This document shows, piece by piece, positions 2,697 through 17,940 of a DNA stretch of 64,000 nucleotides (its first letter is position 1; each line of letters begins with the position of its first letter). The position numbers were made by a program, and so were the translations under genes. Location: positions 4,303 through 68,302 of the forward strand of contig DAHVXI010000045.1 of the NCBI GenBank assembly GCA_027356795.1, in the 5' to 3' direction. This DNA is from Chloroflexota bacterium (GTDB lineage Bacteria > Chloroflexota > UBA6077). The notes under the pieces were generated by a model. It saw only the letters and a program-made list of their open reading frames with translations, did not search any database and was not told where the DNA came from.

Positions 2697-2807
2697 CGCT
2701 GCACCTCTCGCCAGTCTGTTCGCACGGGGATTCTACAGTTTCTTGCCGGATGCCGCTACCTTACGCAGGGAAAGGGTTCGATCCCCCCACCGTGGCCTGG
2801 GGGGTGA

Positions 2808-4472: not shown

Positions 4473-4599
4473 CGGGGCAGCCATGCCAGGATGCCGGCCA
4501 CGACCCCGGCCGGCAATGGACGCCAGTAGATAAGCCAGCATCAATCTGTTAATATGTGCTAGCGTCAGCATAACTCTCCGGCGAAGGCGGATCGCGAAT

Positions 4600-5826: not shown

Positions 5827-6790
5827 CTTCGACCCCAAAGCAGGCAAGAGGGTGGGACACATGAGCGGGAAAGGAACGCGCACCGAGCAGATACCCCTGG
5901 AGGATGGGACACTCAAGGTGGTATCGGTTCTATCCTTCCGGGAGCGTCACCACCTTCCGCAGGTGGTGGACGCGCTGCTGGCCGATGCGCCGGTGGCCTT
6001 TCATGGATGGGGAGTATCGGGCGTTTGTGGCCGGGTCGATGGGGCCAGCTACTTCCAGAAGTTCTGGAGCCTGAAGCAGGGCCGTCCGCCCGGCTCCAAG
6101 ATCCCCCTGCTGGAGCCACCGGAAGAGGTGGTCCGGCACGTGGACTGGCAGAAGGTTCACCCAGCGTACCGCTACCTTCGGGACCCGGCATCTTTGCGAA
6201 GGGTCTGGAAAGGACTTGCCCCTTTCCACCTGATATTCCCCTACAGGGTGGAAGGCGGTACCCTGTCTGAAGCCGTGGTGACGCCGGCCTTCGACCCCGA
6301 CGTTGCCCCGCACACTCCAGTTCCCACGGTTTGCTTCTTCTGGATCGACGACCCAGCCCTGGTTCGGTTGGTGCGGGAGGTGAAGGCGCAGAACCGAGGT
6401 GTGCAGCTTGGCGTCTCTTCCCTAAACGATCCCAAGCAAACGCCACCCTTCAACACCCCGGATCTCCTCGCCTACCTGAAGAGTCGCGGCATCGGCAGGT
6501 ACGACGTCGTCATAGAGGATCCGGTGGTGGAACCCATCGGCATCGCCAGCTCCCATTCGCAGTTCGTGGCTCCGCTGGAAGGAGAGGAGCCGGTGTGGGT
6601 GATGAAGCGGCGAGGCAGCTTCTCCGCACACGGCTTCACGATGCGGACCGGCTTTCCGGTCATCGGGGCTGAGACCGCCAAGGTTGCCGCGAGGCAGGCG
6701 GACCCGGAGCGAGACCTGGATGCCGAGGTGGAGGAGTGTGCGAGGAGGATTCGTCGTTGGCGCCTCAGGGAGACGTTTCACTGGTTCTGA
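5804..6790 (+). CDS. Hypothetical protein with divergent YrdC/Sua5-like (TsaC-fold) signature
   Basis: PVAFHGWGVSGVCG..KFWSLKQGRPPGSKIPLL..HLIFPY aligns with the TsaC motifs (YPTETVYGLG..LKQRP..LIL..FVFPA) but lacks the conserved T-E. The protein is 328 aa, and its start overlaps the 3' end of the upstream synthase by 23 nt. Confidence 0.5.
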   Translation: MVAMASPSFDPKAGKRVGHMSGKGTRTEQIPLEDGTLKVVSVLSFRERHHLPQVVDALLADAPVAFHGWGVSGVCGRVDGASYFQKFWSLKQGRPPGSKIPLLEPPEEVVRHVDWQKVHPAYRYLRDPASLRRVWKGLAPFHLIFPYRVEGGTLSEAVVTPAFDPDVAPHTPVPTVCFFWIDDPALVRLVREVKAQNRGVQLGVSSLNDPKQTPPFNTPDLLAYLKSRGIGRYDVVIEDPVVEPIGIASSHSQFVAPLEGEEPVWVMKRRGSFSAHGFTMRTGFPVIGAETAKVAARQADPERDLDAEVEECARRIRRWRLRETFHWF

Positions 6791-6924
6791 GCCCCTCCAC
6801 AGCTACTTACTACCTGATGGGGTGGGATCCGGAGACCGGCGTGCCAACCCGGCTTACCCTGGAGCGGCTGGGGCTGGACTGGGTGGCAGAGGATCTGGCC
6901 CTGCGTGGCAAGCTGCCCGGATAA
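6736..6924 (+). CDS. Short ORF resembling the extreme C-terminus of aldehyde:ferredoxin oxidoreductase (possible gene remnant)
   Basis: YYLMGWDPETGVPTRLTLERLGLDWVAEDL resembles the AOR-family C-terminal tail (YY.RGWD..G.P...TL..LGL). It overlaps the preceding ORF in a different frame. Confidence 0.3.
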   Translation: MCEEDSSLAPQGDVSLVLSPSTATYYLMGWDPETGVPTRLTLERLGLDWVAEDLALRGKLPG

Positions 6925-6927
6925 GGG

Positions 6928-6962
6928 CAGGAGGCGCGCGGCGAGACGCCGCGCGCCTCCTG
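6928..6962. terminator. Perfect 15-bp stem-loop between convergent genes (bidirectional terminator candidate)
   Basis: caggaggcgcgcggcg-agac-gccgcgcgcctcctg read directly. It lies between the + ORF ending at 6924 and ttrA ending at 6997. Confidence 0.6.
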
Positions 6963-6996
6963 TGGAAGACCGATTTGGCCTCAACTGGGTGGTGGC

Positions 6997-9900
6997 TCAG
7001 ACCTTCATCACCTTTACTCGGGTGTCGTAGAAGGAGGCGCTCCCACCGATAGGATCCGTGAGGCAGGTGGTCTTGGTTCCCTGATCCAGGGCCAGCAGGG
7101 CGTTGGTGCAGAGACCTGTTCCCCGCCGCGGGTCGGCGGGCACCCGCTGTCCGTCCACTTCGGTCTCTCGAGCGCCATAGGCCCAGTGGCCATAGGACCA
7201 GGATACCTGGACGGTTCCAGGCCTCACCCCCTCGACCGTCTGCACCTTGCCGACGATCACCTCCGGCTTGCCGGCCACCACCTCTATGGTGCCATCGGGG
7301 TTGGTGCGGGAGGAGAAGCGAACCAGGTCGCCGTCCTTGAGGCCCAGAGCTGCCAGGTCTTTGGGGTTCATCCGCACCCGGTTCTCGGGAAGCACGCCTC
7401 CCTGCGACCAGTAGTTGCCGGGCGTGCGGGATTGTCCGCCGGTGACCTCCTTGAAGGTCACCAGGTAGAAGGGATACTCCTCGTCCTTCACCGGCTCCCC
7501 GTTGCTGTTCTTCACCGGGTCGTAGCGGGTGATGCCGGAGTGCGGCTTGCCGGTGATGGAGTCCTTCCCTGCCGCCACCGGCTCCACGTAGAGGTTCAAC
7601 AGCTTTCCGTAGGGATGGCCGAGGTAGTTGCCGCTGTACGCCTTGTCGTACCCCTCGAAGCGGCCTCCCCGGTTGAGGACGTAAACGGTGCGCGCCCAGT
7701 TGGCTTCTCCCACGGCCCGCTTCCACTTGGCTTCGTCGAAAACCGCGGGGGGCATCGACTTGCGCGCTTCCCGGAAGATCCGCAGCTCCTCGGCGTCGGC
7801 TTGAGGCACACCGTCGGTGGGAGCATCGCCGGCCGCGATGTTCGCCACCGCCTTGAGGTAGTAGTCCTCCGGTCGGGTGAAATCCAGTCCCGAGTCGAAG
7901 CCGCCCTTTCCGTAGCCGGGTGTGCCCAGTGCCTCCGCGAAGGCGAGCATCATCGACTCCATGGAGATGGGCATCTCTTCGCCATACACGGTGACGATCT
8001 CCGGGATCGGGCCGACGATGGGCTGGCGTACCTTGACCCCCTTGGTCTTCTCGCTGGGGGTGAGCCCCAGGAAGGCCCAGCGCTCGGCGAAGGTCAGGTC
8101 CGGGAAGAGGTAGTCCGCGTACATGGAGGTCTCGCCGATCACCACGTCGTCGGCGATGAAGAGCGGCACCCTGTCCAGGTCGCGCAGCATCCGGATCTGG
8201 TCCCCGCCGCCTGGAACCGCCAGGGCAGGTGTCCCCATGTGCAGCCACAGGACCTTCGCCGGATAGGGATACTGGGCGTCGATGGCCGGGATGACCTCCT
8301 GGTATACGTTGGAGGTGTAGGGATAGAAGGGCCGAGGCGCGGGATAGCCTTTGAACAGGGTGGTGGCCTCGTACTGGACGCCCTCCCGGGTGATCTTGAC
8401 GCCGAAGGCAGCCATCTTGCCCGTGTGCTGCTTGTTCAGATCGAAGGGCTGCCCCTGCTTCCCTCCGTAGGAGGCCCACGCGCCGCCACCGGCGTTCAGT
8501 CCACCCTTCCAGTCGACGTTACCCACCATCAGATTGAGGGTGACCAGCGCCTGCGCGGTGTAGTAGCCGTTGGTGTGCTGGACCGCGCCGCGGTAGAACT
8601 CGACGGCGGCTTTCTTGCCGTGGCTGGTGAACTCCCGGGCAACGGCCTCGATCTGCCTCACCGGGATGCCGGCTATCTGGGCGTACTCCTCCAGGCTCTT
8701 GCCGGCTGCCTCTTCCTTGAGAAGCTGGAAGGCCGTCTTCGCCCGAAAGCCCTGGCCTTGCGCCTCGGCCAGCAGTTCGCCTTCCACGGGGTTCTTGTCG
8801 TCGTTGGGATCCACCGCCAGCAGTTGGCCGCCCTTGCTGACCACGAAGAGGTGGGCCGGGTCCTTACCTTCCGGCGCTGCCAGCCCCGCGTCCTTGGCCC
8901 GCAACAGCTTGCCCGGCAGGCCCTGGTCGTCGAGCTTCACCAGGTAGCTGGCATTGCTCCAGCTCTTCTCTTTCGCCGCTACGGCGGCCGCCTTGTTGGC
9001 GTTCTGAAGGAAGCCCTTGTCGTATCGCTGGTTATCGATGATCCACCGGATCATACCCATGGCCAGGGCGCTGTCGCCGTCGCCGGGCTTGACCGGCAGC
9101 CAGTACCTGGCCTTGGCGGCGGTCTTGGATAGCCGCGGGTCCACCACGGCGATCTGCATGCCCCGCTCCACCATTCCCCGGGTGACCTGTTCGGTCATGG
9201 AGGTGGGACCGAAGTTCGCCTCGAAGGGGCTCGTGCCCCAGAAGATCACGAACTCGGCGGCGGTGAAGTCGGGCTTCATGTGGTTGGGGCCCGGCGACCA
9301 GGCTCCCTTGTCGTACTGGGCGGTCATCCAGCTGTAGGCGATGTGATGGGACTGCTCGCAGATGGTGGTGTGGTCGTACCAGTTGTTGGAGCCGAAGCCG
9401 TTGATGACCCACCGCTTGGCGAAGTCGTTGCGGCCGGGCTCGATGCGGCCGGCCTGGAAGACGAGCTGGTTGTTCTTCGGCCCGAGATCCGGGTGATCGG
9501 GGTCGATCAGGAGGGACAGCTCGGAGGCATGCTTGGCCTTGAACTCCTCCAGGGTCATGGTCTTTTTCGCCACGGCCGCCGCGTCGTCGGCCAGGGCCTT
9601 GATCGTCTTGGCATCTTTGGCGGCGAAGATGTCCTTCAGACCGGGAATGGCGCGATCCTCGCCGACAGCTGCGAACAGCTTACCGCCCTGGACTATCTCC
9701 TTGATCGCCTGATCGAAGGGGATCGCCTGCCATCGGTTTGAGCCGCGGGGTCCGGCTCGCTTGAGCACCTTGCGGATGCGGTAGGGATCGTAGACGGTCT
9801 GGACGGTGGCCTGGCCCTTGGGGCACAGCTTCCCGTCCACCCTCGCTGCCTGGTCGAGGGGGGTGTCGTAGCTGATCTGCGGTAGCATGTTCTGCGGGCC

Positions 9901-10170
9901 GTAGGGGTTCCCGTCCAGCTTGATCAGCACACCGTTCAACGTCTTGCCCTTGAAGGAGCACTGGGTGTTGCACTGGAGGCAGACGCCGTACAGCACGCTC
10001 TCGGGCTGGGCCAGACTGTATACCTCCTCGGGGCTCGGCTCGGCGCGAACCAGGGCCTCGGGCAGCAGGCCGCTTAGCAGAGCGGAGCCACCCAGGAATA
10101 CACCGCCTTTCAGCAGGTCGCGCCGGCTGATCTCCTGGTCCAGCGGCTTCCTTTTCTCACTCATTCTCAT
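6997..10170 (-). CDS. ttrA: Molybdopterin oxidoreductase catalytic subunit, tetrathionate-reductase-like (TtrA-like), Tat-exported
   Basis: 1057 aa with the twin-arginine signal SRRDLLKGGVFLGGSAL. The N-terminal Cys cluster CLQCNTQC...C binds an FeS. The protein has MopB/molybdopterin dinucleotide-binding character. Gene order B-C-A and the adjacent TtrS/R-like regulators support Ttr rather than Psr/Phs. Confidence 0.6.
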   Translation of the reverse strand: MRMSEKRKPLDQEISRRDLLKGGVFLGGSALLSGLLPEALVRAEPSPEEVYSLAQPESVLYGVCLQCNTQCSFKGKTLNGVLIKLDGNPYGPQNMLPQISYDTPLDQAARVDGKLCPKGQATVQTVYDPYRIRKVLKRAGPRGSNRWQAIPFDQAIKEIVQGGKLFAAVGEDRAIPGLKDIFAAKDAKTIKALADDAAAVAKKTMTLEEFKAKHASELSLLIDPDHPDLGPKNNQLVFQAGRIEPGRNDFAKRWVINGFGSNNWYDHTTICEQSHHIAYSWMTAQYDKGAWSPGPNHMKPDFTAAEFVIFWGTSPFEANFGPTSMTEQVTRGMVERGMQIAVVDPRLSKTAAKARYWLPVKPGDGDSALAMGMIRWIIDNQRYDKGFLQNANKAAAVAAKEKSWSNASYLVKLDDQGLPGKLLRAKDAGLAAPEGKDPAHLFVVSKGGQLLAVDPNDDKNPVEGELLAEAQGQGFRAKTAFQLLKEEAAGKSLEEYAQIAGIPVRQIEAVAREFTSHGKKAAVEFYRGAVQHTNGYYTAQALVTLNLMVGNVDWKGGLNAGGGAWASYGGKQGQPFDLNKQHTGKMAAFGVKITREGVQYEATTLFKGYPAPRPFYPYTSNVYQEVIPAIDAQYPYPAKVLWLHMGTPALAVPGGGDQIRMLRDLDRVPLFIADDVVIGETSMYADYLFPDLTFAERWAFLGLTPSEKTKGVKVRQPIVGPIPEIVTVYGEEMPISMESMMLAFAEALGTPGYGKGGFDSGLDFTRPEDYYLKAVANIAAGDAPTDGVPQADAEELRIFREARKSMPPAVFDEAKWKRAVGEANWARTVYVLNRGGRFEGYDKAYSGNYLGHPYGKLLNLYVEPVAAGKDSITGKPHSGITRYDPVKNSNGEPVKDEEYPFYLVTFKEVTGGQSRTPGNYWSQGGVLPENRVRMNPKDLAALGLKDGDLVRFSSRTNPDGTIEVVAGKPEVIVGKVQTVEGVRPGTVQVSWSYGHWAYGARETEVDGQRVPADPRRGTGLCTNALLALDQGTKTTCLTDPIGGSASFYDTRVKVMKV

Positions 10171-11441
10171 GCCTCCTCGTCGGTCTTGCTAACCAGCGGC
10201 AAGTTGCTGTAGCCGATGGTGAACAGCAGGATGGCCATGGACACCACGAAGAGGCCAACCAGCCACTCGCCGCTGCTGGGTATGTACTGGAAGGAAAGAC
10301 CCGCCTCCTGGTAGGCCGCCTCCAGCCCACGGATCTCCGGGATCACCTGGCCCGGAACGACGATGTCGATACGCACTGCCAGGAATGTCACCGCCATCAG
10401 GAAGCCGGCCAGACCGACCGAACCGACAGAGCGGGACCGAAAGACCAGCAAGAGGATGGGCACCAGAGAGCCGACGGCGAGGTGCACCAGCCAGAAGACC
10501 CACCAGTTGGAACCGAACAGCATCTCACGGTAGGCGCCGGCAGCCGCGGGGATGGAGGCATACAGGTTGATGGAGATCTCGGCCCACTCGAAAAGGAGAT
10601 CCAGGGCGAGCAGCGCCAGGGTGATTCGGCCGAGCAGGCTCACCAGGTTGCGGAACTCGGCCGACCGGCGGGAGGGCCAGAGGGCGGCGACCACGAAGGT
10701 GAGGAGGGCCCCACCCGAGGCGAGGGCGGACACCAGGAAGAGTATCGGGTAGAGCGGCGAGTTCCAGTAGGGGCGAGCCCCGATCACACCGAACAGGGCG
10801 CCGACCCCGCCGTGGAAGGCGATGGCCAGGGGGATGCCCAGTGTGCCCAGCAGCTTGAGGACCTTCCGGTCGCGATCCCGTGCGACCGTCGAGGAATCGT
10901 AGTTGCCGAAGGAGAGCAGTCGAGCGAGGAGCCCCGCGAGACCTCGATGGCTTCTCCAGGTCACCAGGTCGGCTCGGATGGCGAACCACATCTCCACCAG
11001 GACCAGGATAAAGTAGGCGGTGTAGAGCCAGACCATCCAGGCCATCATGGAGAAGGGGTTGGGTCGGGTGTACACCTCCCAGAACCTCTCCTGGTGGCCG
11101 AGGTCGAGCCAGATGGTCAGCAGCCCCGAAACCAGGGTGATGAAGGCGGTGAAAAGCGCCAGCTTGCCGATGCGCTCCAACCGCTGAACGCCTCCGACGT
11201 AGATCAGCGAGGAGAGCAGGAAAGCGCCGGCCGAGAGGCCGATGAAGTAGATGTACATGGCCACCCACAGCCCCCACGGCACGTAGCTGCCATAGTTGGC
11301 GATTTCGTGGCCCAAGGTGAACCTTTGAACCAGTCCGTAGGTGCCGGCGGCGAAGGCGGCGGCCCACACCAGGGCCAGAACCACCTTCCAACCGTGCATG
11401 CCGCCGGACTGGCGAGTTGCCGAGATCGCTGACATCTTCAC
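10167..11441 (-). CDS. ttrC: NrfD/PsrC-family integral membrane quinol-interacting subunit (TtrC-like)
   Basis: 424 aa and highly hydrophobic with about 8-10 TM helices. It overlaps ttrA by 4 nt and lies 4 nt after ttrB. Confidence 0.7.
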   Translation of the reverse strand: MKMSAISATRQSGGMHGWKVVLALVWAAAFAAGTYGLVQRFTLGHEIANYGSYVPWGLWVAMYIYFIGLSAGAFLLSSLIYVGGVQRLERIGKLALFTAFITLVSGLLTIWLDLGHQERFWEVYTRPNPFSMMAWMVWLYTAYFILVLVEMWFAIRADLVTWRSHRGLAGLLARLLSFGNYDSSTVARDRDRKVLKLLGTLGIPLAIAFHGGVGALFGVIGARPYWNSPLYPILFLVSALASGGALLTFVVAALWPSRRSAEFRNLVSLLGRITLALLALDLLFEWAEISINLYASIPAAAGAYREMLFGSNWWVFWLVHLAVGSLVPILLLVFRSRSVGSVGLAGFLMAVTFLAVRIDIVVPGQVIPEIRGLEAAYQEAGLSFQYIPSSGEWLVGLFVVSMAILLFTIGYSNLPLVSKTDEEA

Positions 11442-11445
11442 CCTC

Positions 11446-12381
11446 CTAGACCAGATAGTAGACCCTGGGGTTGGTGCCCAGCTCTTCCTTGAGACGCATA
11501 ACGTTTGGCGAGGCGATCAGCTCGGACACCAGGCTGTCAGGCAGGTTGGCGTCGCCGAAGTAGGTGGCGCCGCCGATGCAGGTGGTGGTGCAGGCGGGCA
11601 GCATGCCCGCATCGAGCCGGTGGAGGCAGAAGGTGCACTTACGGACGTTGCCCACGGGCGAGCCCTTGGCTCGGTCCCACCGCTTGCCGTACTCGAAGTT
11701 GGCCTGCTTCTCGTAGGGCTGCTGTGCGGGCGTGCTCTTGGTGTAGTAGAAACCGGAATCGAAGGTGCGCGCCGAGTAGGGACATGCTGTGATGCAGTAG
11801 CGGCAACCGATGCAGATGTCGTAGTCGATTTCCACCATGCCGTCGGGTCGCTTGTAGGTTGCCCCCACGGGACATACCTGCGTGCAGGGTGGGTTGTCGC
11901 ACTGCATGCAGGGGCGCGGGGTGAAGCGGCGCGAGACGTTGGGGTAGCTGCCGATCTCCTCCTCGATGACGGGTCGGTATACGACTCCGGGCGGGAGCTG
12001 GTTCTCCGCCTTGCAGGCGACGGTGCAGGAGGAGCAGCCGACGCACTTACGCAGGTCGATGACCATGACCCAGCGCCGCTGGTCGACCGGCTTAGCCAGG
12101 GCGCGCTGGAGACCGTTCTGCATGCGCAGCAGCAGGTTCTCAAAGTCAGGGGAGGAGGGCGCGGAGGGGACCGGAGGTGAACTCCCCGCTCCCGGGGCGG
12201 ATTGGGAGGCTGTAGTTGATTGGCGTGAGCCGGCGGCCTCGGCCGCGACCGTTCTGCTGGCCGCGCCGCCGACGGCAGCCGCCGCGGCCAGCCCCAGCCA
12301 CTTTAGGAAGCTGCGCCTTTCGCCGGCCGGCACCTCTTCTTCGGGGGCCGAAGCGGGCGAGGGTTGGTTGTCTGTGGTCAT
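11446..12381 (-). CDS. ttrB: 4Fe-4S ferredoxin-type subunit of DMSO-reductase-family complex (TtrB-like), Tat signal
   Basis: Four Cys clusters: [45 protein letters not shown]. The Tat motif is [16 protein letters not shown]. The likely start is the ATG at 12381, with AGGAGG 9 nt upstream. The ORF extends to 12477. Confidence 0.75.
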
Positions 12382-12488
12382 AGTTCGCCACCTCCTGCGA
12401 GCCAACTTGGATCCGGGCAACTGGACAGACTGAACCCGGGGCGTAGATGCCTGGGTCACGGGGGAATCGTCGTCCAAGGGAGGCCCAT

Positions 12489-12565
12489 CGGGGAGAGTAG
12501 AATCCCGCAGACTCTGGGTGGCTCAGTGCGGGTAGTCCGCAGGCATGCGCCACCTGAGTTGCGGG
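12489..12565. promoter_or_regulatory. Cluster of TGCGG..CCGCA palindromes upstream of ttrB (candidate response-regulator operators)
   Basis: gaatcccgcag (12489-12499), tgcgggtagtccgca (12517-12531) and ttgcgggattcccgcaa (12549-12565, 16/17 palindromic). All lie in the ttrB-regulator spacer. Confidence 0.45.
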
Positions 12566-12591
12566 ATTCCCGCAAGATATGGAGACGGGGC

Positions 12592-13242
12592 TTAGTCCTC
12601 GGACAGGAGCCCCTGCTGGCGGGCGTACTGCACCAGCGCGCGTCGCCCGCGGACCCCCAGCTTCTCCATCAGGCGCGTCTTGTGCACCTCGACCGTCCGC
12701 ACGCTGAGGTAGAGCTCGGTGGCGATCTCAGGGGTCGTGTACCCGTGGGCGATGAGGCGGAGAACCTCGGTCTCGCGCTCGGTCAGGGGCTCTATCGGGG
12801 CGGTCTGGGGGTGCTGGCGCGGCCCCCAGCTCTCCTCGACCAGGACCCGAGTTAGCGACGGGTGCAGGTATACTTCCCCGCGGACGACGGCCCGAATCGC
12901 CTGCAGCAGCTCCTGGCCCCCGGTCCGCTTCAGCGCATATCCCGAGGCGCCGGCGGCCAGGGCCTGGTGAAGATACACCGGGTCGTCGTACTGGCTGAGG
13001 ATCAGAACTCGCAGTTCGGGGCGCTCCGCCTTCATCCGCCGGGTCGCTTCCAGGCCGCCGCCAGGCATGCGGACGTCCACCAGGGCGACGTCCGGGCGCA
13101 GTTCCCGCGCCTGTCGGACGGCGTCCTCGGCGTCCGCTGCCTCGCCGACCACCATCAGATCGGGCTGAGCGTCGAGGAGGCTCCCCAACCCTGCCCGAAG
13201 CACGCCGTGGTCATCCGCCAACAACACCTTGAGCTTGTTCAT
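12592..13242 (-). CDS. NarL/FixJ-family response regulator (REC + LuxR-type HTH), TtrR-like
   Basis: MNKLKVLLADDHGVLRAG...DVALVDVRMPGG..LILSQYDD and a C-terminal LTERETEVLRLIAHGYTTPEIATELYLSVRTVEVHKTRLMEKLG. The start overlaps the upstream kinase gene by 32 nt. Confidence 0.9.
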   Translation of the reverse strand: MNKLKVLLADDHGVLRAGLGSLLDAQPDLMVVGEAADAEDAVRQARELRPDVALVDVRMPGGGLEATRRMKAERPELRVLILSQYDDPVYLHQALAAGASGYALKRTGGQELLQAIRAVVRGEVYLHPSLTRVLVEESWGPRQHPQTAPIEPLTERETEVLRLIAHGYTTPEIATELYLSVRTVEVHKTRLMEKLGVRGRRALVQYARQQGLLSED

Positions 13243-15193
13243 CGCTGTTTGCCACCAGTAGGTTGTCGGCCAGGGGCACGGTAACGAAGATCGTCGTGCC
13301 CTGGCCGGGCTGCGACTCCATAGTCAGTCGGCCGCCGACCAGCGCAGCCCTCTCGGCTATGCCGGCGAGCCCCAGCCGTTCCCTCAGAGGGGCCGAGGCA
13401 ACGAGGTCTGGCTCGAAGCCGCAGCCGTCGTCCTCTACCACCGCCACCATATCGGCCCCGCGCCGTTCCAGGAGGACGCTCACCCCCCGTGCCCGAGCGT
13501 GGCGGGCGACGTTGGTGAGCGCCTCCTGGACGATCCGGAACACGGCCGTCTCGGCCGCCGGCAGGAGCCGCAGCCCGTCGACACCGACCGTCCTGAAATC
13601 GACCTCGAGGTCGTGCCGCTGTCCGTACTCCCGCAGGTAACGGCCGATCCCGGGCACCAGGCCGGCATCGTCCAGGGCGCTCGGCCGCAGCTCCACGGAT
13701 AGGTGGTGGACCCCCTCCAGCGCCCCCGATGCCACTGCCCGCAGCTGGTCGGCCCGTTCCTGAGCTGCCCGCGACAGACCCGACTCTCCCGCCAGCCCCT
13801 CCAGCCCCAGGACCAACGAGGTCAGCACCTGGCTGGTGTCGTCGTGGAGCTCCCGGGCGATCCGCCTGCGCTCCTCCTCCTGGGCGCCGATGATGCTGTC
13901 CAGCAGTTGGTGCTGCACCTCCTGCTTTCTAAGCAGTTCCTCCCAGAGCCGGGCGTTCTCGATGGCCACGCCGATCTGGCTGCTGATGGCCCCCAGGATG
14001 TCCAGCTCCTCTTGAGCGAACTCCCTGCGCTCGGCCGTTGTCGCCAGGTTCATCACCCCCAGAGCCCGTCCCTTGGCGATCAGGGGCACGGTGAGGTGCC
14101 CCTGGAGGCCTTCCGAACCCAGCAGGGCACAGCGGCCGCTGGAGGCATCGACGAAGCAGGCCTGGCCGATGGCAATGGCATCCCGACACGCGCAGGCCCG
14201 CTGAGACCCGTCTGCAACCAGAAGCCGCGCCTCCGGAGGGAGTCCAACCTGCGAGCCCAGTTGCAGGGAGTCCGCGTCGCTATCGAGGAGCCAGATCCAG
14301 CCCGCCGTCAGGGAGGTCAACTGCAGAGCGCGATCCAGGGCGGCGCCCAGCACCTCCTGGAGCGTCCGGGATTGGCCCACCGCCGATGCCATCAGGTTCA
14401 GGGCCGAGAGCTCGCGGTTCCGCCGGAGGAGCCGCTGGTTGAACTCCTCGGTCTGGGCCTGGGACCTGGACAGGCTCTCAGCCATGGAGTTGAATGCCTG
14501 CCCCAGCACGCCGATCTCGTCGCGGGTCCGCGGCCGCACCCGGGTGCCCAGGTCCCCTCGCTCCACCCCTCGGACCACACGGACCATGTCCGAGATGGGT
14601 CGGGTCAGGATCAGGGTGAGCAGATAGGCCACCCCGAGACCCACCAGGCTGACCGCTCCGGTCATCAACAGGAGCTCGCGGGTGGCCGTCTCCAGCTCTG
14701 TCTGAAGACGCCGGTCTGAGAGCCCGACCCTGGCGATGCCGGCGCGGCCATCGAAGATGGGAACGGCCGCATCCCGGACAAGCCCCTCCTGGGTGCTGAG
14801 GATCTCCAGGTGGTACCGATCCTGAGACCCGACGGCGTTCGCCTCCACCAGCTCCGCCGGCAGATGTCCACCGAAGGTGTGGACCAGGGGGGAGCCGTCG
14901 GGCCCCAGGACGAGCACGTACCGAACGTCCGGGTTGTTCTCCAGGGTGTCCCTCGCCAACTCGTAGAGGCCGAAGGTGTTGTTGGTCAGAATGAGGTCAC
15001 TGGAGCGGGCGGCCAGGTCTCGGGCGATGGACACGGCCCGCTGGTCCAGCTCGCGTCCGAGGGCGGCGGCGTTGCGCTGGCGCAGCTCGTAGGTGGCTCC
15101 CAGCCCCAGGAGCAGGATGAGCCCGACCACGATGCCCATGATCTTGGTCTGGACGCCGACGCTATCGGCCAGCACCAGCAGCTTTCCGATCAT
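13211..15193 (-). CDS. Sensor histidine kinase: 2 TM + extracytoplasmic domain + HAMP + GAF + HisKA_3 + HATPase_c (NarX/TtrS-like)
   Basis: The TM helices are MGIVVGLILLLGLGA and LLLMTGAVSLVGLGVAYLLTLILT. The HAMP region is DEIGVLGQAFNSM. The HisKA_3 H-box is RRRIARELHDDTSQ. The ATPase G-box is VEDDGCGF...GLAGIAERAALVGG. Confidence 0.9.
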   Translation of the reverse strand: MIGKLLVLADSVGVQTKIMGIVVGLILLLGLGATYELRQRNAAALGRELDQRAVSIARDLAARSSDLILTNNTFGLYELARDTLENNPDVRYVLVLGPDGSPLVHTFGGHLPAELVEANAVGSQDRYHLEILSTQEGLVRDAAVPIFDGRAGIARVGLSDRRLQTELETATRELLLMTGAVSLVGLGVAYLLTLILTRPISDMVRVVRGVERGDLGTRVRPRTRDEIGVLGQAFNSMAESLSRSQAQTEEFNQRLLRRNRELSALNLMASAVGQSRTLQEVLGAALDRALQLTSLTAGWIWLLDSDADSLQLGSQVGLPPEARLLVADGSQRACACRDAIAIGQACFVDASSGRCALLGSEGLQGHLTVPLIAKGRALGVMNLATTAERREFAQEELDILGAISSQIGVAIENARLWEELLRKQEVQHQLLDSIIGAQEEERRRIARELHDDTSQVLTSLVLGLEGLAGESGLSRAAQERADQLRAVASGALEGVHHLSVELRPSALDDAGLVPGIGRYLREYGQRHDLEVDFRTVGVDGLRLLPAAETAVFRIVQEALTNVARHARARGVSVLLERRGADMVAVVEDDGCGFEPDLVASAPLRERLGLAGIAERAALVGGRLTMESQPGQGTTIFVTVPLADNLLVANSDEQAQGVVGG

Positions 15194-16152
15194 CTCTGGC
15201 CCCTCACCTTCCGGAGCATCTCCCGCACGGACTCGTAGGCAGCCTGGTCGGGCACGACGAAGCGGTCGATCATCAGCCCTTCCAGGATGGTCCGCCCCCT
15301 GGGATCGGCGTCCATGCCGAGGAGGATCTTCCGCAGCCGCTCCTTCAGATCCATCGACAGGCGGGGATGCACCACCACCGGGGGTGATCCGAAGGGCTCG
15401 GAACGCCAGATCACCCGGGTGTGCTCGGCGAACTCGGGGGTTTGGGACAGCAGGTAATCGTAGACCAGGCTGTCGACCGAGGCGCCATCGACCAGCTTGT
15501 CGGCGACAGCCTTGATAGAGTTGTCGTGGCTGTAGGTGTAAACGACCCTGCGGAAGAAGCCCTCGGGGGTCTGCCCCATCTGCCAGAGGAGATAGGTGGG
15601 GACCAGCCGGCCGCTGTTGGAGTCCGGGTCGGTGAAGGCGAAGATCTTGCCTTGAAGCTGGTCGAGCCGCTCTACCGGGCTGTCGGCCGGGACGATGAGG
15701 TAGGAGCGATAGAGGGCTTCGCCCCGAACCTCCGGCGCGGCGAGCAGCTCCATCCCGAAGTCCTGCTGGCCCTGGACGTAGGCCTCGCTGCAGACGAAGG
15801 CCAGGTCGATGCCGCCCGCCCGGATCAGGTCATTCACCTCCGCGTAGCTCTTGCGCTGGACCAGCTCGACGGGGCGGTCCAATTGCGCGCCAAGGTACCG
15901 GAGGAAGTCCTGGTAGGTCTTATAGGTTTCTTTTGGGGAGATGACGCCGGCGACCGCCACTCGCAGGGGAGCGAGAACCGGCCGTGATGCCGACACGAGT
16001 TGCGGCTGCCCGGCAGCGGGGAGCAGCACTCGCTTGTACTGGGGGCCGGGGGAGCAGGCAGCGGCGAGCACCACGAGAACCATCAGGACGAGCGACGCGA
16101 CGCCCGTTCCGGGGAATGTGGGTGGGACTATCCGGCCGATGCTGTGACCCAC
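15190..16152 (-). CDS. PhnD/SsuA-like periplasmic substrate-binding lipoprotein, probable accessory sensor for the kinase
   Basis: The signal plus lipobox is LVLMVLVVLAAACS. The PhnD-like body carries LRVAVAGVISPKETYKTYQDFLRYL...DLAFVCSEAYV...IFAFTDPDSNSG. The ATGA overlap with the kinase start implies co-translation. Confidence 0.75.
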   Translation of the reverse strand: MGHSIGRIVPPTFPGTGVASLVLMVLVVLAAACSPGPQYKRVLLPAAGQPQLVSASRPVLAPLRVAVAGVISPKETYKTYQDFLRYLGAQLDRPVELVQRKSYAEVNDLIRAGGIDLAFVCSEAYVQGQQDFGMELLAAPEVRGEALYRSYLIVPADSPVERLDQLQGKIFAFTDPDSNSGRLVPTYLLWQMGQTPEGFFRRVVYTYSHDNSIKAVADKLVDGASVDSLVYDYLLSQTPEFAEHTRVIWRSEPFGSPPVVVHPRLSMDLKERLRKILLGMDADPRGRTILEGLMIDRFVVPDQAAYESVREMLRKVRGQR

Positions 16153-16257
16153 AGTCGTTTCCTGTTGCCATGACTTGACCAGTACGCTGCTGCATTATAG
16201 CTGCGCAAGGCAACTTGGCAACAATCGCCGTAGCTCACCCCGGCTGTCGCTCCGCTC

Positions 16258-16569
16258 TTACCGGCTCACGAGGGCCGCCGTTGCGATCACCCCGATAGAC
16301 AGCAGCAGCATCACCAGGCCCGCCACCGCCAGGATCAGGGGCGACACGTTGAAGAAGGCGCCGGCCAGCACGCTCGCCGTCTCCGCCGCCCCCAGAACCA
16401 GCAGCCAGGGAGCGGTCAAGTAGTTGGCTCGCCGGACCCTGGCTGTCTCTTCCTCGTTGTGGGGTATCCGCACCCCTACCCAGACTCGCTCGGCCCGCCT
16501 CAGCATGGTTACCCCCAATATGGAGAGACCGAGGCCGACCAGCATGTTGGTCATCAGGACAAGGATCAT
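16258..16569 (-). CDS. Small membrane protein (3 TM), hypothetical
   Basis: The 103-aa hydrophobic ORF overlaps the upstream aminotransferase stop by 4 nt. Confidence 0.5.
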   Translation of the reverse strand: MILVLMTNMLVGLGLSILGVTMLRRAERVWVGVRIPHNEEETARVRRANYLTAPWLLVLGAAETASVLAGAFFNVSPLILAVAGLVMLLLSIGVIATAALVSR

Positions 16570-17924
16570 ACCTTCTGTAATCCACCTACCGTGTGGGTTA
16601 TGGCATCGCCAACGATGCTGACGATTTCGTCGATCTGCTGCTCGCTGATCACGAAGGGCGGAGCCAGCATGATCACGTCGCCCCGGACCCGGAAGAGAAC
16701 GCCCTGCTCCTGTGCGTACCGCCGGATCTTCTCGCCGGCCGCCAGCGAGGCCGGCAGCGGCGTCCCCTGCTTGTCGGCTGCCAGCTCTACCGCCACCATC
16801 AGGCCGAGCCCTCGCACCTCGCCGACGCCCTCCGCCTCCTCCAACTCCTCGAGCTTCGCCTTGAGCCGCTCGCCCATGGCCGCGGCGCGCGCTACCAGCT
16901 CTTCCTCTTCCAGGATGTCGAGATTCCTGAGGCCGACGGCGCAGCAGACGGGGTGGAGGGAATAGGTGTAGGCGTGGTTGAAGCTACCCCCCGGCGGCAG
17001 GTTGCGGAAAGCCCTGTGCACTCGCTCGTTCACCATGACACCGCCCAGCGGCTGGTAGCCGCTGGTGATCCCTTTGGCGAAGGACATGATGTCGCAGTTT
17101 ACGCCCCAGTGCTCCAACCCGAACATCTTGCCGGTCCGTCCGAAGCCGGTGATCACCTCGTCGGCGATGAAGAGCACGTCGTACTTATCGCAAATCTCCC
17201 GTATCTTCGGGAAGTACTCGGGCGGGGCGGTTACCACCCCTCCGCCTCCGTGCACCGGCTCGGCGATGAAGGCAGCAACGGTCTCGGGATCCTCGGCCAG
17301 GATTTGCTGCTCCAGGGTACTGGCACATGCGATGCCACAACCCGGATAGCTCTTGTGCAGGGGGCAATGGAAGCAATCGTGGGTGGGGATGTGGAAGAAG
17401 CCCCACTGGATCGGGTCGAAGTGCTGCCAGTACTGCCGCATGCCGGTGGCGACCATGGCGGCCCCTGTGGTGCCGTGGTAGCCGAGCTGGAGCGCGACGA
17501 TCTTCACCTTGTCCGGCTTGCCGTTCATCTTCCAGTAGAAGCGGGCGATCTTGAAGGCCGTCTCGTTGGATTCGGCGCCCCCCGTGGTGAAGAAGGTTGC
17601 TTTCAGATCGCCCGGCGCCAGATCCGCCAGCCGGTCGGCCAGCTCGATAGCGGGCGGGTTGGACATGCCGGCGTAACCCGAGGCGTAGGCCAGGGTGCGC
17701 ATCTGCTCGGCGGCGGCTTCGGCCAGCTCCGCCCGGCCATGGCCCACGTTGACGTTCCAGAGCCCGGCGAAGGCGTCTATGTACTCCTTGCCGGCCGCGT
17801 CGACGACGGTGGCGCCTTTGCCCCGGACGAGAACCAGCGGACCGGTGGTGTTGTGGGCGTGGCTGTGCATCGGATGCAGGACGTGCTCCAGATCCTTCTG
17901 AACCAACGACTCCGGTTCGTACAT
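16566..17924 (-). CDS. Class III (omega) aminotransferase, PLP-dependent
   Basis: Motifs are FAGLWNVNVGHGR, FIADEVITGFGRTGKMFG and SFAKGITSGYQPLG, which carries the PLP Lys. A Cys-rich insert reads HDCFHCPLHKSYPGCGIAC. Confidence 0.9.
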   Translation of the reverse strand: MYEPESLVQKDLEHVLHPMHSHAHNTTGPLVLVRGKGATVVDAAGKEYIDAFAGLWNVNVGHGRAELAEAAAEQMRTLAYASGYAGMSNPPAIELADRLADLAPGDLKATFFTTGGAESNETAFKIARFYWKMNGKPDKVKIVALQLGYHGTTGAAMVATGMRQYWQHFDPIQWGFFHIPTHDCFHCPLHKSYPGCGIACASTLEQQILAEDPETVAAFIAEPVHGGGGVVTAPPEYFPKIREICDKYDVLFIADEVITGFGRTGKMFGLEHWGVNCDIMSFAKGITSGYQPLGGVMVNERVHRAFRNLPPGGSFNHAYTYSLHPVCCAVGLRNLDILEEEELVARAAAMGERLKAKLEELEEAEGVGEVRGLGLMVAVELAADKQGTPLPASLAAGEKIRRYAQEQGVLFRVRGDVIMLAPPFVISEQQIDEIVSIVGDAITHTVGGLQKV

Positions 17925-17940
17925 CGCTCCACTCCTTCGC

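What the first reader, a model, noticed from the sequence alone, without database searches (positions are those of the whole stretch)
6997..16152. Tetrathionate-reductase-like ttrBCA operon controlled by a split three-component sensor (PhnD-like lipoprotein + GAF kinase + LuxR regulator)
Six co-directional genes are linked by 4-nt overlaps. They are a lipoprotein PhnD/SsuA-like binding protein, a NarX-type HK (HAMP-GAF-HisKA_3), a NarL-type RR, then FeS (Tat), NrfD membrane and molybdopterin catalytic (Tat, 1057 aa) subunits in B-C-A order. In Salmonella, TtrS carries the PhnD-like domain fused in its periplasmic region. Here it is a separate lipoprotein, and the kinase keeps its own extracytoplasmic loop plus a Cys-containing GAF domain. 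The substrate is inferred only from architecture and could be another chalcogen oxyanion (tetrathionate, thiosulfate, polysulfide, arsenate or selenate).
Basis: partly seen in the sequence, partly recalled or inferred. Interest (0 to 1): 0.6.

Follow-up and report, generated by a model that had tools for sequence, protein, structure and literature searches.

The report
Arsenate-type sensor controlling Ttr-like molybdoenzyme operon
This Chloroflexi locus encodes a membrane-bound molybdenum reductase related to tetrathionate reductase, most likely a "Ttr-like" arsenate reductase, switched on by an ArrX/ArrS/ArrR-type three-protein oxyanion sensor; both parts belong to kinds already described, so it is a useful new member and not a new system.

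Summary
The six minus-strand genes are real, but they form two units. X-S-R (16152-12592) has its own sigma70-like promoter. B-C-A (12381-6997) lies behind a 210-nt spacer.

- **Binding protein.** It is not a detached TtrS domain or a phosphonate transporter part. It belongs to the ArrX/AioX arsenic-oxyanion sensor family: 205 bits and 44% identity to ArrX, and all seven pocket residues are kept. In 61 of 61 related loci a histidine kinase follows it.
- **Operator.** The spacer carries palindromes (TTGCGGGAATCCCGCAA and two related sites) of the same type as the TCAGG-N5-6-CCTGA boxes found before the molybdoenzyme genes in related loci. The published putative ArrR site upstream of Chrysiogenes arrA has this form too.
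- **Catalytic subunit.** It lies in the TtrA lineage (100% bootstrap) but outside bona fide TtrA (500 bits against a cut-off of 1750). It carries the Gly-Arg motif reported for arsenic-metabolising enzymes, which the true TtrA sequences compared here lack.
- **Arsenic context.** Orthologous operons sit beside ars genes (Acr3, ArsC, ArsM, ArsR) in 7 of 33 loci, including cultured Moorella.

Best reading: a Ttr-like respiratory arsenate reductase regulated by an ArrXSR-type system. The substrate was not tested. One added feature is an invariant Cys-x-Cys…Cys…His set in the kinase's GAF domain.

The parts
16194..16221 (-). sigma70-like promoter (TTGCCA-16 nt-TATAAT, 11 of 12) upstream of the X gene; putative promoter of the XSR unit
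   Evidence: consensus match only. No R-box within 3 mismatches lies here, so XSR is probably not autoregulated.
15190..16152 (-). X: ArrX/AioX-family extracytoplasmic oxyanion-binding sensor protein, probable lipoprotein (Cys33), 320 aa
   Evidence: ArrX 205 bits (44% id), AioX 150 bits (34% id), PhnD/PtxB 60-69 bits. Pocket residues Y103, C121, Y148, S178, S180, H209 and D227 equal AioX Y88, C106, Y131, S161, S163, H192 and D210. A kinase follows X in 61 of 61 related loci.
13211..15193 (-). S: sensor histidine kinase, 660 aa: TM1, sCache_3_2, TM2, HAMP, GAF, HisKA_3, HATPase
   Evidence: At least 120 homologues share this architecture at 44-100% identity.
14096..14194 (-). Codons for the conserved Cys334-x-Cys336 ... 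Cys355 ... His366 set in the GAF domain of S
   Evidence: the three Cys are invariant and His is at least 90% conserved in 36 diverse homologues. AF2 model has pLDDT 89.6 and a normal GAF fold. The ligand is unknown.
12592..13242 (-). R: NarL/FixJ-type response regulator (receiver + LuxR HTH), 216 aa
   Evidence: ArrR of Chrysiogenes belongs to the same CitB/FixJ-like class (PMC5908839).
12559..12575 (-). R-box 1: perfect palindrome TTGCGGGAATCCCGCAA in the R-B spacer
   Evidence: It is the only match with up to 2 mismatches in the 64-kb window. It has the same architecture as the TCAGG-N5-6-CCTGA boxes in orthologous spacers.
12527..12541 (-). R-box 2: TGCGGACTACCCGCA, 33 nt downstream of box 1
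12503..12509 (-). Half-site TGCGGGA, 32 nt downstream of box 2
   Evidence: read directly from the sequence
11446..12381 (-). B: Tat-exported four-cluster [4Fe-4S] electron-transfer subunit, 311 aa from ATG 12381
   Evidence: Scores: TtrB 176, DsrO 178, ArrB 164 bits. SD AGGAGG lies 9 nt upstream of ATG 12381.
10167..11441 (-). C: NrfD/PsrC-type quinol-oxidising membrane anchor, 424 aa, about 10 hydrophobic segments
6997..10170 (-). A: Tat-exported Mo/W-bisPGD catalytic subunit of the TtrA lineage, 1057 aa; FS0 C64/C67/C71/C116, Mo ligand Cys271, Gly241-Arg242 motif

Best explanation
This is an ArrXSR-type three-component switch driving a Ttr-like respiratory arsenate reductase.

**Proposed mechanism**
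1. The membrane-tethered binding protein X captures an oxyanion outside the cytoplasmic membrane. The ligand is most likely arsenate, and antimonate cannot be separated from it here.
2. Liganded X docks on the sCache domain of kinase S.
3. S phosphorylates the NarL/FixJ-type regulator R.
4. R dimers bind the palindromic boxes at 12503-12575 and activate the B-C-A operon.
5. B and A are exported by Tat and held on the outer face of the membrane by C. C oxidises menaquinol and passes electrons through the four Fe-S clusters of B and FS0 of A to the Cys271-ligated Mo centre, where the oxyanion is reduced.
6. The cytoplasmic GAF domain of S, with its invariant Cys-x-Cys...Cys...His set, probably supplies a second input (redox/O2 through a metal or Fe-S site, or arsenite).

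**Shown:** gene content, family memberships, conserved synteny, the conserved operator type, the active-site motifs and the arsenic-gene neighbourhood of orthologues.

**Inferred:** the ligand, the substrate, the direction of catalysis, the X-S docking and the role of the GAF site.
For: **Sensor**
- X matches ArrX at 205 bits (E 1.5e-59) and AioX at 150 bits, against 60-69 bits for PhnD/PtxB.
- All seven AioX pocket residues are kept, and X has the shorter ArrX-like loop (ISPxET).
- The three characterised family members bound only arsenite or arsenate (ArrX also phosphate, weakly). None bound tetrathionate, thiosulfate or selenate (PMC5908839).
- A kinase follows X in 61 of 61 loci, and a NarL-type regulator follows in 38 of 61.

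**Operator**
- Perfect palindromes of one type lie in the R-B spacers of at least 12 orthologous loci.
- TCAGG-N5-6-CCTGA occurs 17 times in 1.38 Mb of fetched loci. Fourteen of these lie just after R or just before a molybdoenzyme operon.
- The published putative ArrR site upstream of Chrysiogenes arrA is tcaggtttttccctga.
- The window carries the variant TTGCGGGAATCCCGCAA plus two related sites, and box 1 is unique in the window.

**Enzyme**
- TtrA lineage at 100% bootstrap, but outside the bona fide TtrA group, which has 95% support.
- TtrA model 500 bits against a cut-off of 1750.
- Cys271 aligns with the ArrA Mo ligand Cys193.
- Gly241-Arg242 aligns with the GR of an ArrA-like sequence. 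It is present in all 31 members of the window clade and absent from C. freundii TtrA, the Pseudomonas BYT-5 TtrA-annotated enzyme and the Azospirillum homologue. PMC12949373 reports this GR (Arg165 of ArrA) as present in Arr, Arx and Ttr-like arsenate reductases and absent in true Ttr.

**Genomic context**
- Arsenic genes lie within 10 kb of the orthologous operon in 7 of 33 loci. They include ACR3 (464 bits, passing its cut-off), ArsM (340 bits, passing), ArsC and ArsR, in L025, L032, L069, Moorella L081, L085, L091 and L092.
- A sister enzyme sits inside an ars island on enterobacterial plasmids.
Against: - No ars gene lies in this 64-kb window.
- X-family proteins more similar to this X than ArrX is also sit beside PsrA/PhsA-like enzymes. 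The X tree follows host phylum, not enzyme type, so the ligand cannot be read from family membership alone. Badilla et al. state that pocket residues do not set selectivity.
- One PsrA-like outgroup also has GR at the aligned position, so the motif is not exclusive to arsenic enzymes.
- The lineage also holds a selenate reductase (SrdA) and true tetrathionate reductases.
- The sequences of the proven or proposed Ttr-like arsenate reductases (Pyrobaculum aerophilum, Anaeromyxobacter PSR-1, Melioribacter roseus) and of SrdA could not be obtained, so clade membership with them is untested.
- No experiment of any kind supports the substrate.
Confidence: 0.6

Rival explanations
1. It is a reductase for another group 15/16 oxyanion (selenate as for SrdBCA, antimonate or tellurate), with the X sensor retuned to that anion.
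For: - SrdBCA of Bacillus selenatarsenatis has the same B-C-A order and belongs to the same lineage.
- The window clade contains Bacillota.
- X gives 97.6 bits to a putative selenate-binding SBP model.
- Acr3 and ArsR also handle Sb(III) (general knowledge).
- X-family proteins pair with several enzyme clades.
Against: - AioX, ArxX and ArrX did not bind selenate or antimonite.
- The selenate SBP model score is far below its cut-off of 250 and below the ArrX match.
- The neighbours of orthologues are arsenic genes such as ArsM and ArsC.
- The GR motif is shared with arsenic enzymes.
Confidence: 0.2
2. It is a genuine sulfur-compound reductase (tetrathionate, thiosulfate or polysulfide), with X sensing a sulfur oxyanion.
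For: - TtrA is the best-scoring curated family for A, and TtrB is near the top for B.
- The order is B-C-A and both A and B carry Tat leaders, as in Ttr.
- Many X-S-R modules flank PsrA/PhsA-like enzymes.
- Some Ttr homologues have been linked to thiosulfate disproportionation.
Against: - A scores 500 bits against a cut-off of 1750, and it lies outside the bona fide TtrA clade, which has 95% support.
- A carries the GR motif that true Ttr lacks.
- X is unrelated to the TtrS sensor domain beyond the fold, and TtrS has different pocket residues.
- The characterised X proteins did not bind tetrathionate or thiosulfate.
- R scores 58 bits against TtrR, whose cut-off is 290.
Confidence: 0.12
3. The enzyme runs in the oxidative direction, as an Arx-like anaerobic arsenite oxidase, with X sensing arsenite.
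For: - AioX and ArxX, which share the same pocket including the Cys, bind arsenite.
- ArxA is a close relative of ArrA and uses the same kind of subunits.
Against: - X is closer to ArrX (44% id) than to AioX (34% id) and has the short ArrX-type loop.
- All characterised members of the TtrA lineage are reductases.
- Arsenite oxidation to a low-potential menaquinone pool is unfavourable (general bioenergetics; inference).
Confidence: 0.05
4. The PhnD-like protein is a transport component (phosphonate, phosphite or phosphate ABC uptake) that merely sits next to an unrelated two-component system and reductase.
For: - Pfam PF12974 scores 235 bits.
- The broad subfamily model TIGR01098 scores 151 bits, above its cut-off of 112.
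Against: - The PhnD equivalog scores 155 bits against a cut-off of 261.
- No permease or ATPase gene lies nearby.
- A kinase follows X in 61 of 61 loci.
- The ArrX/AioX match is about 140 bits above the transporter SBPs.
Confidence: 0.01

Closest known systems
ArrX-ArrS-ArrR of Chrysiogenes arsenatis (and AioXSR/ArxXSR), the three-component regulators of arsenic-respiring molybdoenzymes (Badilla et al. 2018, PMC5908839; ArrX structures 6x6b etc.)
   Same: - X is 44% identical to ArrX, with all seven pocket residues and the short ArrX-type loop.
- X is followed by a kinase and a CitB/FixJ/NarL-type regulator (as ArrR, unlike the sigma54-type AioR/ArxR).
- The module sits next to a DMSO-reductase-family enzyme.
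- The operator is a palindrome of the same type as the putative ArrR site tcaggtttttccctga.
   Different: - The regulated enzyme is a TtrA-lineage B-C-A complex, not ArrAB.
- X is a probable lipoprotein (its homologues are mainly from Chloroflexota/Bacillota genomes).
- The kinase carries an extra GAF domain with an invariant Cys3-His set.
- The operator half-site is GCGGGA instead of CAGG(G)A.
- Ligand binding was not tested, and ArrS was not available for comparison.
Ttr-like arsenate reductases (Pyrobaculum aerophilum enzyme expressed in Pyrococcus furiosus, Haja 2020; Anaeromyxobacter sp. PSR-1, Muramatsu 2020; Melioribacter roseus, Gavrilov 2017), as summarised in PMC12949373
   Same: - TtrA-lineage catalytic subunit distinct from both true Ttr and true Arr.
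- B-C-A order with Tat leaders on A and B.
- Gly-Arg motif at the position of ArrA Arg165.
- Cys Mo ligand.
   Different: - Their sequences could not be fetched, so it is unknown whether the window enzyme falls in either of their two clades.
- Whether those loci carry XSR genes is unknown to me.
TtrBCA/TtrSR tetrathionate respiration system of Salmonella/Citrobacter (compared here with the C. freundii plasmid copy, L084)
   Same: - B-C-A gene order.
- Tat-exported A and B.
- NrfD-type anchor.
- Cys-ligated Mo and an FS0 cluster.
- A LuxR-type regulator with a kinase that uses a PBP-fold sensor.
   Different: - Identities are A 30%, B 40% and C 26%.
- A is below the equivalog cut-off and outside the TtrA clade.
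- TtrA lacks the GR motif.
- TtrC has about 9 hydrophobic segments (340 aa), against about 10 (424 aa) here.
- The TtrS sensor domain is fused and has other pocket residues.
- TtrR matches at only 58 bits.
SrdBCA respiratory selenate reductase of Bacillus (Mesobacillus) selenatarsenatis SF-1
   Same: Same lineage according to published trees (TtrA/SrdA/alternative arsenate reductase), the same B-C-A order, and a Gram-positive-type host.
   Different: The sequence could not be retrieved, so the relationship to the window clade is untested. Whether it has an XSR-type regulator could not be checked.
NreB-NreC oxygen-sensing system of Staphylococcus (HisKA_3 kinase with a Cys4 [4Fe-4S] PAS domain plus a NarL-type regulator controlling nitrate respiration); named from general knowledge
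   Same: A HisKA_3 kinase paired with a LuxR-type regulator controls an anaerobic respiratory enzyme. The cytoplasmic sensor domain carries a conserved cysteine set. One homologue is auto-annotated 'NreB'.
   Different: - The Cys set here lies in a GAF domain, not PAS, and is Cys3-His, not Cys4.
- No evidence for a cluster exists.
- The kinase also has an extracytoplasmic input through X.

Membership tests
ArrX/AioX/ArxX subfamily of sensing periplasmic binding proteins (XSR systems) | Sequence closer to ArrX/AioX than to transport SBPs (PhnD, PtxB, HtxB) | tested here: met
   ArrX 205 bits and AioX 150-152 bits, against PhnD/PtxB/HtxB 60-69 bits.
ArrX/AioX/ArxX subfamily of sensing periplasmic binding proteins (XSR systems) | Binding-pocket residues Tyr88, Cys106, Tyr131, Ser161, Ser163, His192, Asp210 (AioX numbering), including the Cys absent from PhnD | tested here: met
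   Y103, C121, Y148, S178, S180, H209 and D227. Six are invariant in the 20-sequence alignment; position 180 is Ser or Thr.
ArrX/AioX/ArxX subfamily of sensing periplasmic binding proteins (XSR systems) | Encoded with a sensor kinase and a response regulator next to a DMSO-reductase-family enzyme, without ABC permease or ATPase | tested here: met
   X-S-R-B-C-A here; a kinase follows X in 61 of 61 related loci.
ArrX/AioX/ArxX subfamily of sensing periplasmic binding proteins (XSR systems) | Binds arsenate or arsenite selectively | not testable with these tools
   Needs ITC or a similar assay on purified protein.
ArrR-type regulation | CitB/FixJ-type regulator with a palindromic site of the tcagg-N6-cctga type upstream of the enzyme genes | tested here: met
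   The window has the variant TTGCGGGAATCCCGCAA. The canonical box occurs in orthologous loci, with 14 of 17 matches in a regulatory position. Binding itself was not tested.
Tetrathionate reductase TtrA (NCBIfam NF011567 equivalog) | Score at or above the curated cut-off (1750 bits) | tested here: not met
   500.1 bits.
Tetrathionate reductase TtrA (NCBIfam NF011567 equivalog) | Groups with bona fide TtrA in a tree | tested here: not met
   the group [C. freundii TtrA + the Pseudomonas BYT-5 TtrA-annotated enzyme + Azospirillum + the Citrobacter ars-island enzyme] has 95-98% NJ bootstrap and excludes the window protein.
Tetrathionate reductase TtrA (NCBIfam NF011567 equivalog) | ttrBCA order, Tat leader on both A and B, nine-helix membrane subunit (criteria quoted in PMC12949373) | tested here: inconclusive
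   Order and both Tat leaders are met. A crude hydropathy count gives about 10 segments for C, against 9 for TtrC.
Tetrathionate reductase TtrA (NCBIfam NF011567 equivalog) | Controlled by TtrS/TtrR | tested here: not met
   TtrR model scores 58 bits against a cut-off of 290. X versus TtrS gives no BLASTP hit and a 13.5-bit profile match.
TtrA/SrdA/alternative arsenate reductase lineage (broad) | Closer to TtrA than to the PsrA/PhsA or ArrA/ArxA families; Cys Mo ligand; FS0 cluster | tested here: met
   100% bootstrap for the lineage against PsrA-like and ArrA-like outgroups. Cys271 and the four FS0 Cys are conserved.
Ttr-like arsenate reductases | Gly-Arg motif at the position of ArrA Arg165, absent from true Ttr (PMC12949373) | tested here: met
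   G241-R242 is present in all 31 window-clade sequences and in the ars-island enzyme. It is absent from the two TtrA sequences compared and from the Azospirillum homologue. One PsrA-like outgroup also has GR.
Ttr-like arsenate reductases | Clusters with the Pyrobaculum, Anaeromyxobacter PSR-1 or Melioribacter enzymes | not testable with these tools
Ttr-like arsenate reductases | Arsenate reductase activity or induction by As(V) | not testable with these tools
   Needs an experiment.
Respiratory arsenate reductase ArrA (NF041714) | Score at or above the cut-off (1600 bits) | tested here: not met
   112.9 bits. PDB ArrA 6cz7 gives only 93.7 bits.
Phosphonate ABC transporter PhnD (TIGR03431) | Score at or above the cut-off (261 bits), with phnC/phnE neighbours | tested here: not met
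   155.5 bits; no permease or ATPase genes nearby.
   Fdh-alpha 94.5 bits and QrcB 46.3 bits, far below TtrA at 500.
SrdBCA selenate reductase | Clusters with SrdA of B. selenatarsenatis | not testable with these tools
   No SrdA sequence could be obtained.

The most novel reading that the evidence does not exclude
The kinase may be a coincidence detector of a kind not described for ArrS/AioS-type sensors. It would combine an external input (oxyanion-loaded ArrX-like lipoprotein on the sCache domain) with an internal input read by an invariant Cys-x-Cys...Cys...His site in a GAF domain. That site could be an O2/redox-sensitive Fe-S or metal centre, or a direct arsenite sensor.

In addition, the X-S-R module with its 'ArrR box' may be a general regulator shared by three molybdoenzyme clades (Ttr-like, Psr/Phs-like, Arr-like) across Chloroflexota, Bacillota, Desulfobacterota, Nitrospirota and Methanoperedens. 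If so, this Ttr-like clade would mark a large, overlooked reservoir of arsenate respirers that lack arrA.
Probability: 0.3. Interest if true: 0.6.

Novelty: new member of a known kind. Interest (0 to 1): 0.38.

Why it matters
Surveys of arsenic cycling usually count arrA. If this clade of Ttr-like enzymes reduces arsenate, arsenate respiration would extend to many genomes that arrA-based screens miss. Homologues at 54-100% identity occur in Chloroflexota, Bacillota, Desulfobacterota, Calditrichota and Bacteroidota.

The locus also offers practical markers for finding such operons:
- an ArrX-like gene followed by a kinase;
- the TCAGG-N5-6-CCTGA box;
- the Gly-Arg motif.

Cultured test organisms exist (Neomoorella humiferrea, N. 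glycerini, N. stamsii).

The conserved Cys3-His GAF site gives a concrete hypothesis for how these kinases might combine an external oxyanion signal with an internal redox or arsenite signal.

It is not a new kind of system. XSR sensors and Ttr-like arsenate reductases are both already described.

Tried and rejected
1. **Split TtrS.** Rejected. There is no BLASTP hit, the profile match is only 13.5 bits, and the pocket residues differ.
2. **Phosphonate transporter.** Rejected.
3. **NaoABC antimonite oxidase** (a Symbiobacteriaceae lead, because a Symbiobacteriia homologue exists). Unrelated: it is a NapA-like enzyme with a Rieske subunit.
4. **AnrA antimonate reductase.** The papers held give no family placement. 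The primary paper PMC11206593 is not held. I recall from memory that anr clusters may carry XSR genes; this is unverified and not used.
5. **Reference sequences and papers.** Attempts to obtain SrdA, Pyrobaculum and Anaeromyxobacter sequences or papers failed.
6. **Exact window operator in other loci.** TGCGG-N-CCGCA was not found there. A mistyped pattern gave zero hits. The general palindrome search then revealed the shared box type.
7. **Riboswitches.** Rfam found no RNA family, such as a Moco riboswitch, in 6500-16700.
8. **ars genes in the window.** None were found by tblastn with Moorella and Citrobacter ars proteins.
9. **First NJ tree.** The script using Biopython distances timed out. 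It was redone with numpy.
10. **AF2 model of the GAF domain.** Foldseek returned only generic GAF domains.
11. **X tree against partner enzyme type.** No co-diversification was seen, so the ligand could not be assigned this way.

Full report
**1. What is in the sequence**

Six genes lie on the minus strand between 16152 and 6997.

- **X (15190-16152, 320 aa).** It matches Pfam PF12974 at 235 bits. It has one N-terminal hydrophobic segment followed by a cysteine (Cys33) that is conserved in at least 90% of homologues, so it is a probable lipoprotein.
- **S (13211-15193, 660 aa).** It has two transmembrane segments (12-30 and 174-192) flanking an sCache_3_2 domain. HAMP, GAF (276-412), HisKA_3 and HATPase domains follow.
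- **R (12592-13242, 216 aa).** It is a receiver plus LuxR/GerE regulator.
- **B.** A four-cluster ferredoxin with a Tat motif (RRSFLK).
- **C (10167-11441, 424 aa).** An NrfD-type membrane protein.
- **A (6997-10170, 1057 aa).** It has a Tat motif (SRRDLLK), the FS0 cysteines C64/C67/C71/C116, and the molybdopterin and dinucleotide-binding domains.

R and B are separated by 210 nt if B starts at ATG 12381, which has an AGGAGG 9 nt upstream. The longest ORF from TTG 12477 would still leave 114 nt.

A strong sigma70-like promoter match (TTGCCA-16-TATAAT) lies upstream of X at 16221-16194. The locus is therefore two units, XSR and BCA. Base composition is like that of the flanks, and no Rfam family matches the region.

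**2. The binding protein is an ArrX/AioX-type sensor, not a piece of TtrS or a transporter**

Against all solved structures, X matches as follows:

| Target | Bits |
|---|---|
| ArrX of Chrysiogenes arsenatis | 205 (E 1.5e-59) |
| AioX | 150-152 |
| Transport proteins PhnD, PtxB, HtxB | 60-69 |

In a 20-sequence alignment X is 44% identical to ArrX and 34% to AioX.

Badilla et al. (PMC5908839) define the pocket of this sensing subfamily as Tyr88, Cys106, Tyr131, Ser161, Ser163, His192 and Asp210. X has Y103, C121, Y148, S178, S180, H209 and D227 at these positions. It also shares the shorter, ArrX-like loop (ISPKET against ISPLET in ArrX and LTPVAD in AioX).

The same paper reports the following:
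- AioX and ArxX bind arsenite. ArrX binds arsenate (Kd 1 µM) and phosphate weakly.
- None of the three binds selenate, tetrathionate, thiosulfate, molybdate or phosphonate.
- ArrR is a CitB/FixJ-like regulator, the same class as R here. AioR and ArxR are sigma54 activators.

By contrast, X has no BLASTP hit to a bona fide TtrS (C. freundii plasmid, L084) at 1e-3. A profile of the X family scores TtrS at 13.5 bits, and TtrS has other residues at the aligned Tyr, Cys, Tyr, Ser and Ser positions.

The PhnD equivalog model is missed (155 bits against 261), and no ABC permease or ATPase gene is nearby.

A scan of one genome per species found at least 590 relatives of X. In all 61 fetched loci with enough downstream sequence, X is directly followed by a histidine kinase. 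In 38 of these a NarL-type regulator follows as well.

**3. The operator links XSR to BCA and to ArrR**

The R-B spacer of the window carries three related sites:
- a perfect palindrome, TTGCGGGAATCCCGCAA (12559-12575);
- a second site, TGCGGACTACCCGCA (12527-12541);
- a half-site, TGCGGGA (12503-12509).

They are spaced 33 and 32 nt apart. Box 1 is the only match with up to 2 mismatches in the 64-kb window.

The exact words are not found in other loci. However, a search for perfect palindromes in the R-B spacers of 23 orthologous loci found one shared type in at least 12 of them. Examples are TTGTCAGGGAAACCCTGACAA, ATCAGGGAATTCCCTGAT, TGTCAGGATATTCCTGACA and CCATCGGGAAAAGTCCCGATGG. Moorella has GCCTAAGGGAAAAACCTTAGGC.

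The pattern TCAGG-N5-6-CCTGA occurs 17 times in 1.38 Mb of fetched loci:
- Eight matches lie in the 9.3 kb of R-B spacers.
- Six more lie directly after an R gene or directly before a molybdoenzyme operon.

The putative ArrR site that Badilla et al. reported upstream of arrA in Chrysiogenes is tcaggtttttccctga, the same pattern. In L091 and L092 the XSR genes lie downstream of the operon, yet a box of this type still precedes B.

This is the strongest computational evidence that R controls BCA and that the module is of the ArrXSR kind. Binding itself is inferred.

**4. The enzyme is in the TtrA lineage but is not a true tetrathionate reductase**

NCBIfam scores for A:

| Model | Bits | Cut-off |
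|---|---|---|
| TtrA | 500 | 1750 |
| PhsA | 181 | 694 |
| ArrA | 113 | 1600 |
| Formate dehydrogenase | 94 | 666 |
| QrcB | 46 | 440 |

By BLASTP, A compares as follows:

| Comparison | Identity |
|---|---|
| Moorella humiferrea homologue | 63% |
| Enzyme inside an ars island on a Citrobacter arsenatis plasmid | 35% |
| Bona fide TtrA | 30% |

In a neighbour-joining tree of 39 sequences:
- The TtrA lineage is separated from PsrA-like and ArrA-like outgroups in 100% of bootstraps.
- The group of C. freundii TtrA, the Pseudomonas BYT-5 enzyme annotated as TtrA (a DsrO/NrfD/TtrA-annotated operon), the Azospirillum homologue and the ars-island enzyme has 95-98% support and excludes the window protein.
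- The window protein groups with Chloroflexota and Moorella sequences (74-100% for the inner groups).
- Monophyly of the whole 31-member window clade is weak (47%).

Cys271 aligns with the Mo ligand Cys193 of ArrA and is invariant.

Published trees define a "TtrA/SrdA/alternative arsenate reductase" lineage with versatile substrates (PMC7331816 and PMC10100899).

A 2026 paper (PMC12949373) states that Ttr homologues which are in fact As(V) reductases exist (Pyrobaculum aerophilum, Anaeromyxobacter sp. PSR-1, Melioribacter roseus) and form two clades distinct from true Ttr. It also reports that a Gly-Arg pair, containing the arsenate-binding Arg165 of ArrA, is present in Arr, Arx and Ttr-like arsenate reductases but absent from true Ttr.

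In my alignment G241-R242 of the window protein aligns with the GR of an ArrA-like sequence, with spacing to the Cys ligand of 29 residues against 28. The pair is present in all 31 members of the window clade and in the ars-island enzyme. It is replaced in C. freundii TtrA (TS), the Pseudomonas enzyme (AG) and the Azospirillum homologue (SV). One PsrA-like outgroup also has GR, so the motif is suggestive and not exclusive.

**5. Conserved synteny and arsenic neighbourhood**

Among the 80 loci fetched through X, 19 carry a full-length A at 42-81% identity directly downstream of (or, in two cases, upstream of) X-S-R. Six more end within a B or C of the same type.

Seven loci were fetched through A homologues. 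Six of them have XSR (Moorella L081, L085, L086, L091, L092, L093) and one does not (L087).

Counting the window, that gives 33 loci. Arsenic genes lie within 10 kb in seven of them:
- L025: ArsC, thioredoxin, ArsR.
- L032: Acr3, ArsC.
- L069: Acr3, ArsR.
- Moorella L081: three ArsR-family genes, an ArsP-family permease and ACR3 at 464 bits against a cut-off of 283.
- L085: ArsR plus ArsM at 340 bits against a cut-off of 263.
- L091: an Acr3-type SBF-family gene plus an ArsR-type HTH_5 gene, divergent from B.
- L092: an LMW-phosphatase-type (LMWPc) gene of the ArsC class, an ArsA fragment, thioredoxins and an ArsR-type gene divergent from B.

The window itself has no ars gene. This frequency is far above what a random 20-kb stretch would show; that comparison is my estimate, not a computed background.

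**6. What weakens the arsenate call**

X-family proteins also stand next to other enzymes:
- PsrA/PhsA-like enzymes of 800-870 aa (PhsA model 250-440 bits) in at least 16 loci;
- ArrA-like enzymes in Methanoperedens (ArrA model 482 bits).

A tree of X follows host phylum and not the type of partner enzyme. Either one ligand serves three enzyme clades, or specificity switches often.

A 2026 paper likewise noted arrR/S/X-like genes upstream of an Sre-like enzyme on Methanoperedens elements (PMC13444090).

The position of SrdA and of the proven Ttr-like arsenate reductases relative to the window clade could not be tested.

**7. The GAF domain**

Cys334, Cys336 and Cys355 are invariant, and His366 is at least 90% conserved, in 36 diverse homologues at 36-72% identity over the GAF region.

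An AlphaFold model of residues 255-435 is confident (pLDDT 89.6) and has a standard GAF fold. The four residues fall in the small helices and the strand that line the usual GAF ligand pocket. This is read from the secondary-structure string; distances were not measured.

Many X-linked kinases, such as the 473-aa Moorella protein, lack the GAF domain. The function is unknown. A redox or O2-sensing metal or Fe-S site (by analogy with NreB) or arsenite binding are the obvious candidates.

**8. Verdict**

It is a Ttr-lineage B-C-A reductase under a three-component sensor.
- The sensor is of the known ArrXSR kind and is not a split TtrS.
- The enzyme is best read as a Ttr-like arsenate reductase, a kind already reported since 2020.
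- The pairing, the conserved operator, the wide distribution and the Cys3-His GAF site are useful additions, but they do not make it a new kind of system.

Noticed in passing
window 55448-63980 (+): BREX-type defence genes: BrxC/PglY (DUF6079; PADLOC 1757 bits), a PglXI-type methyltransferase (1264 bits) and a PDC-M45B-like ORF. GC content falls to 58-60% from about 60 kb.
   Followed up: partly
window 25878-29741 (+): A 1287-aa histidine kinase with five GAF domains, a PAS domain and a HisKA/HATPase core.
   Followed up: no
L083 (Citrobacter arsenatis LY-1 plasmid NZ_CP037863.1) 10019-15414; similar hits on many enterobacterial plasmids (E. coli, Salmonella, Enterobacter): A TtrA-lineage B-C-A operon plus a 193-aa ORF sits inside an ars island (arsH, arsD, arsRDABC, a second arsC). 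It is annotated only as DsrO / hypothetical / molybdopterin-dependent oxidoreductase. It carries the Gly-Arg motif and scores 663 bits on the TtrA model (cut-off 1750). It may be a plasmid-borne respiratory arsenate reductase.
   Followed up: partly
L032 10109-19609 and L038 7774-17146 (Chloroflexi groundwater MAGs): Two tandem X-S-R modules precede a single Ttr-like B-C(-A) operon, which suggests two sensed ligands or recent duplication.
   Followed up: no
L015 (Ardenticatenaceae, 10.4-Mb contig) 1069-19704: One X-S-R module is flanked by a Ttr-like B-C-A operon upstream and a B-C-PsrA-like operon downstream. Each operon is preceded by a TCAGGGAA(G/T)TCCCTGA box, so a single sensor appears to serve two different molybdoenzymes.
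   Followed up: partly
L007, L010, L020 (Anaerolineae/Chloroflexota MAGs): Here X-S-R is followed by B and C subunits 58-61% and 42-46% identical to those of the window, but then by a shorter (870 aa) PsrA/PhsA-like catalytic subunit instead of the Ttr-like one. The module appears to swap its catalytic subunit.
   Followed up: partly
L093 13561-19556; L091 and L092 13296-16424: In some orthologous loci the operon is followed by tatA, tatC, Moco biosynthesis genes (MoeA, MobA/B, MoaA), a molybdate transporter, and FmdE-like and TauE-like genes. None of these is adjacent in the window.
   Followed up: no
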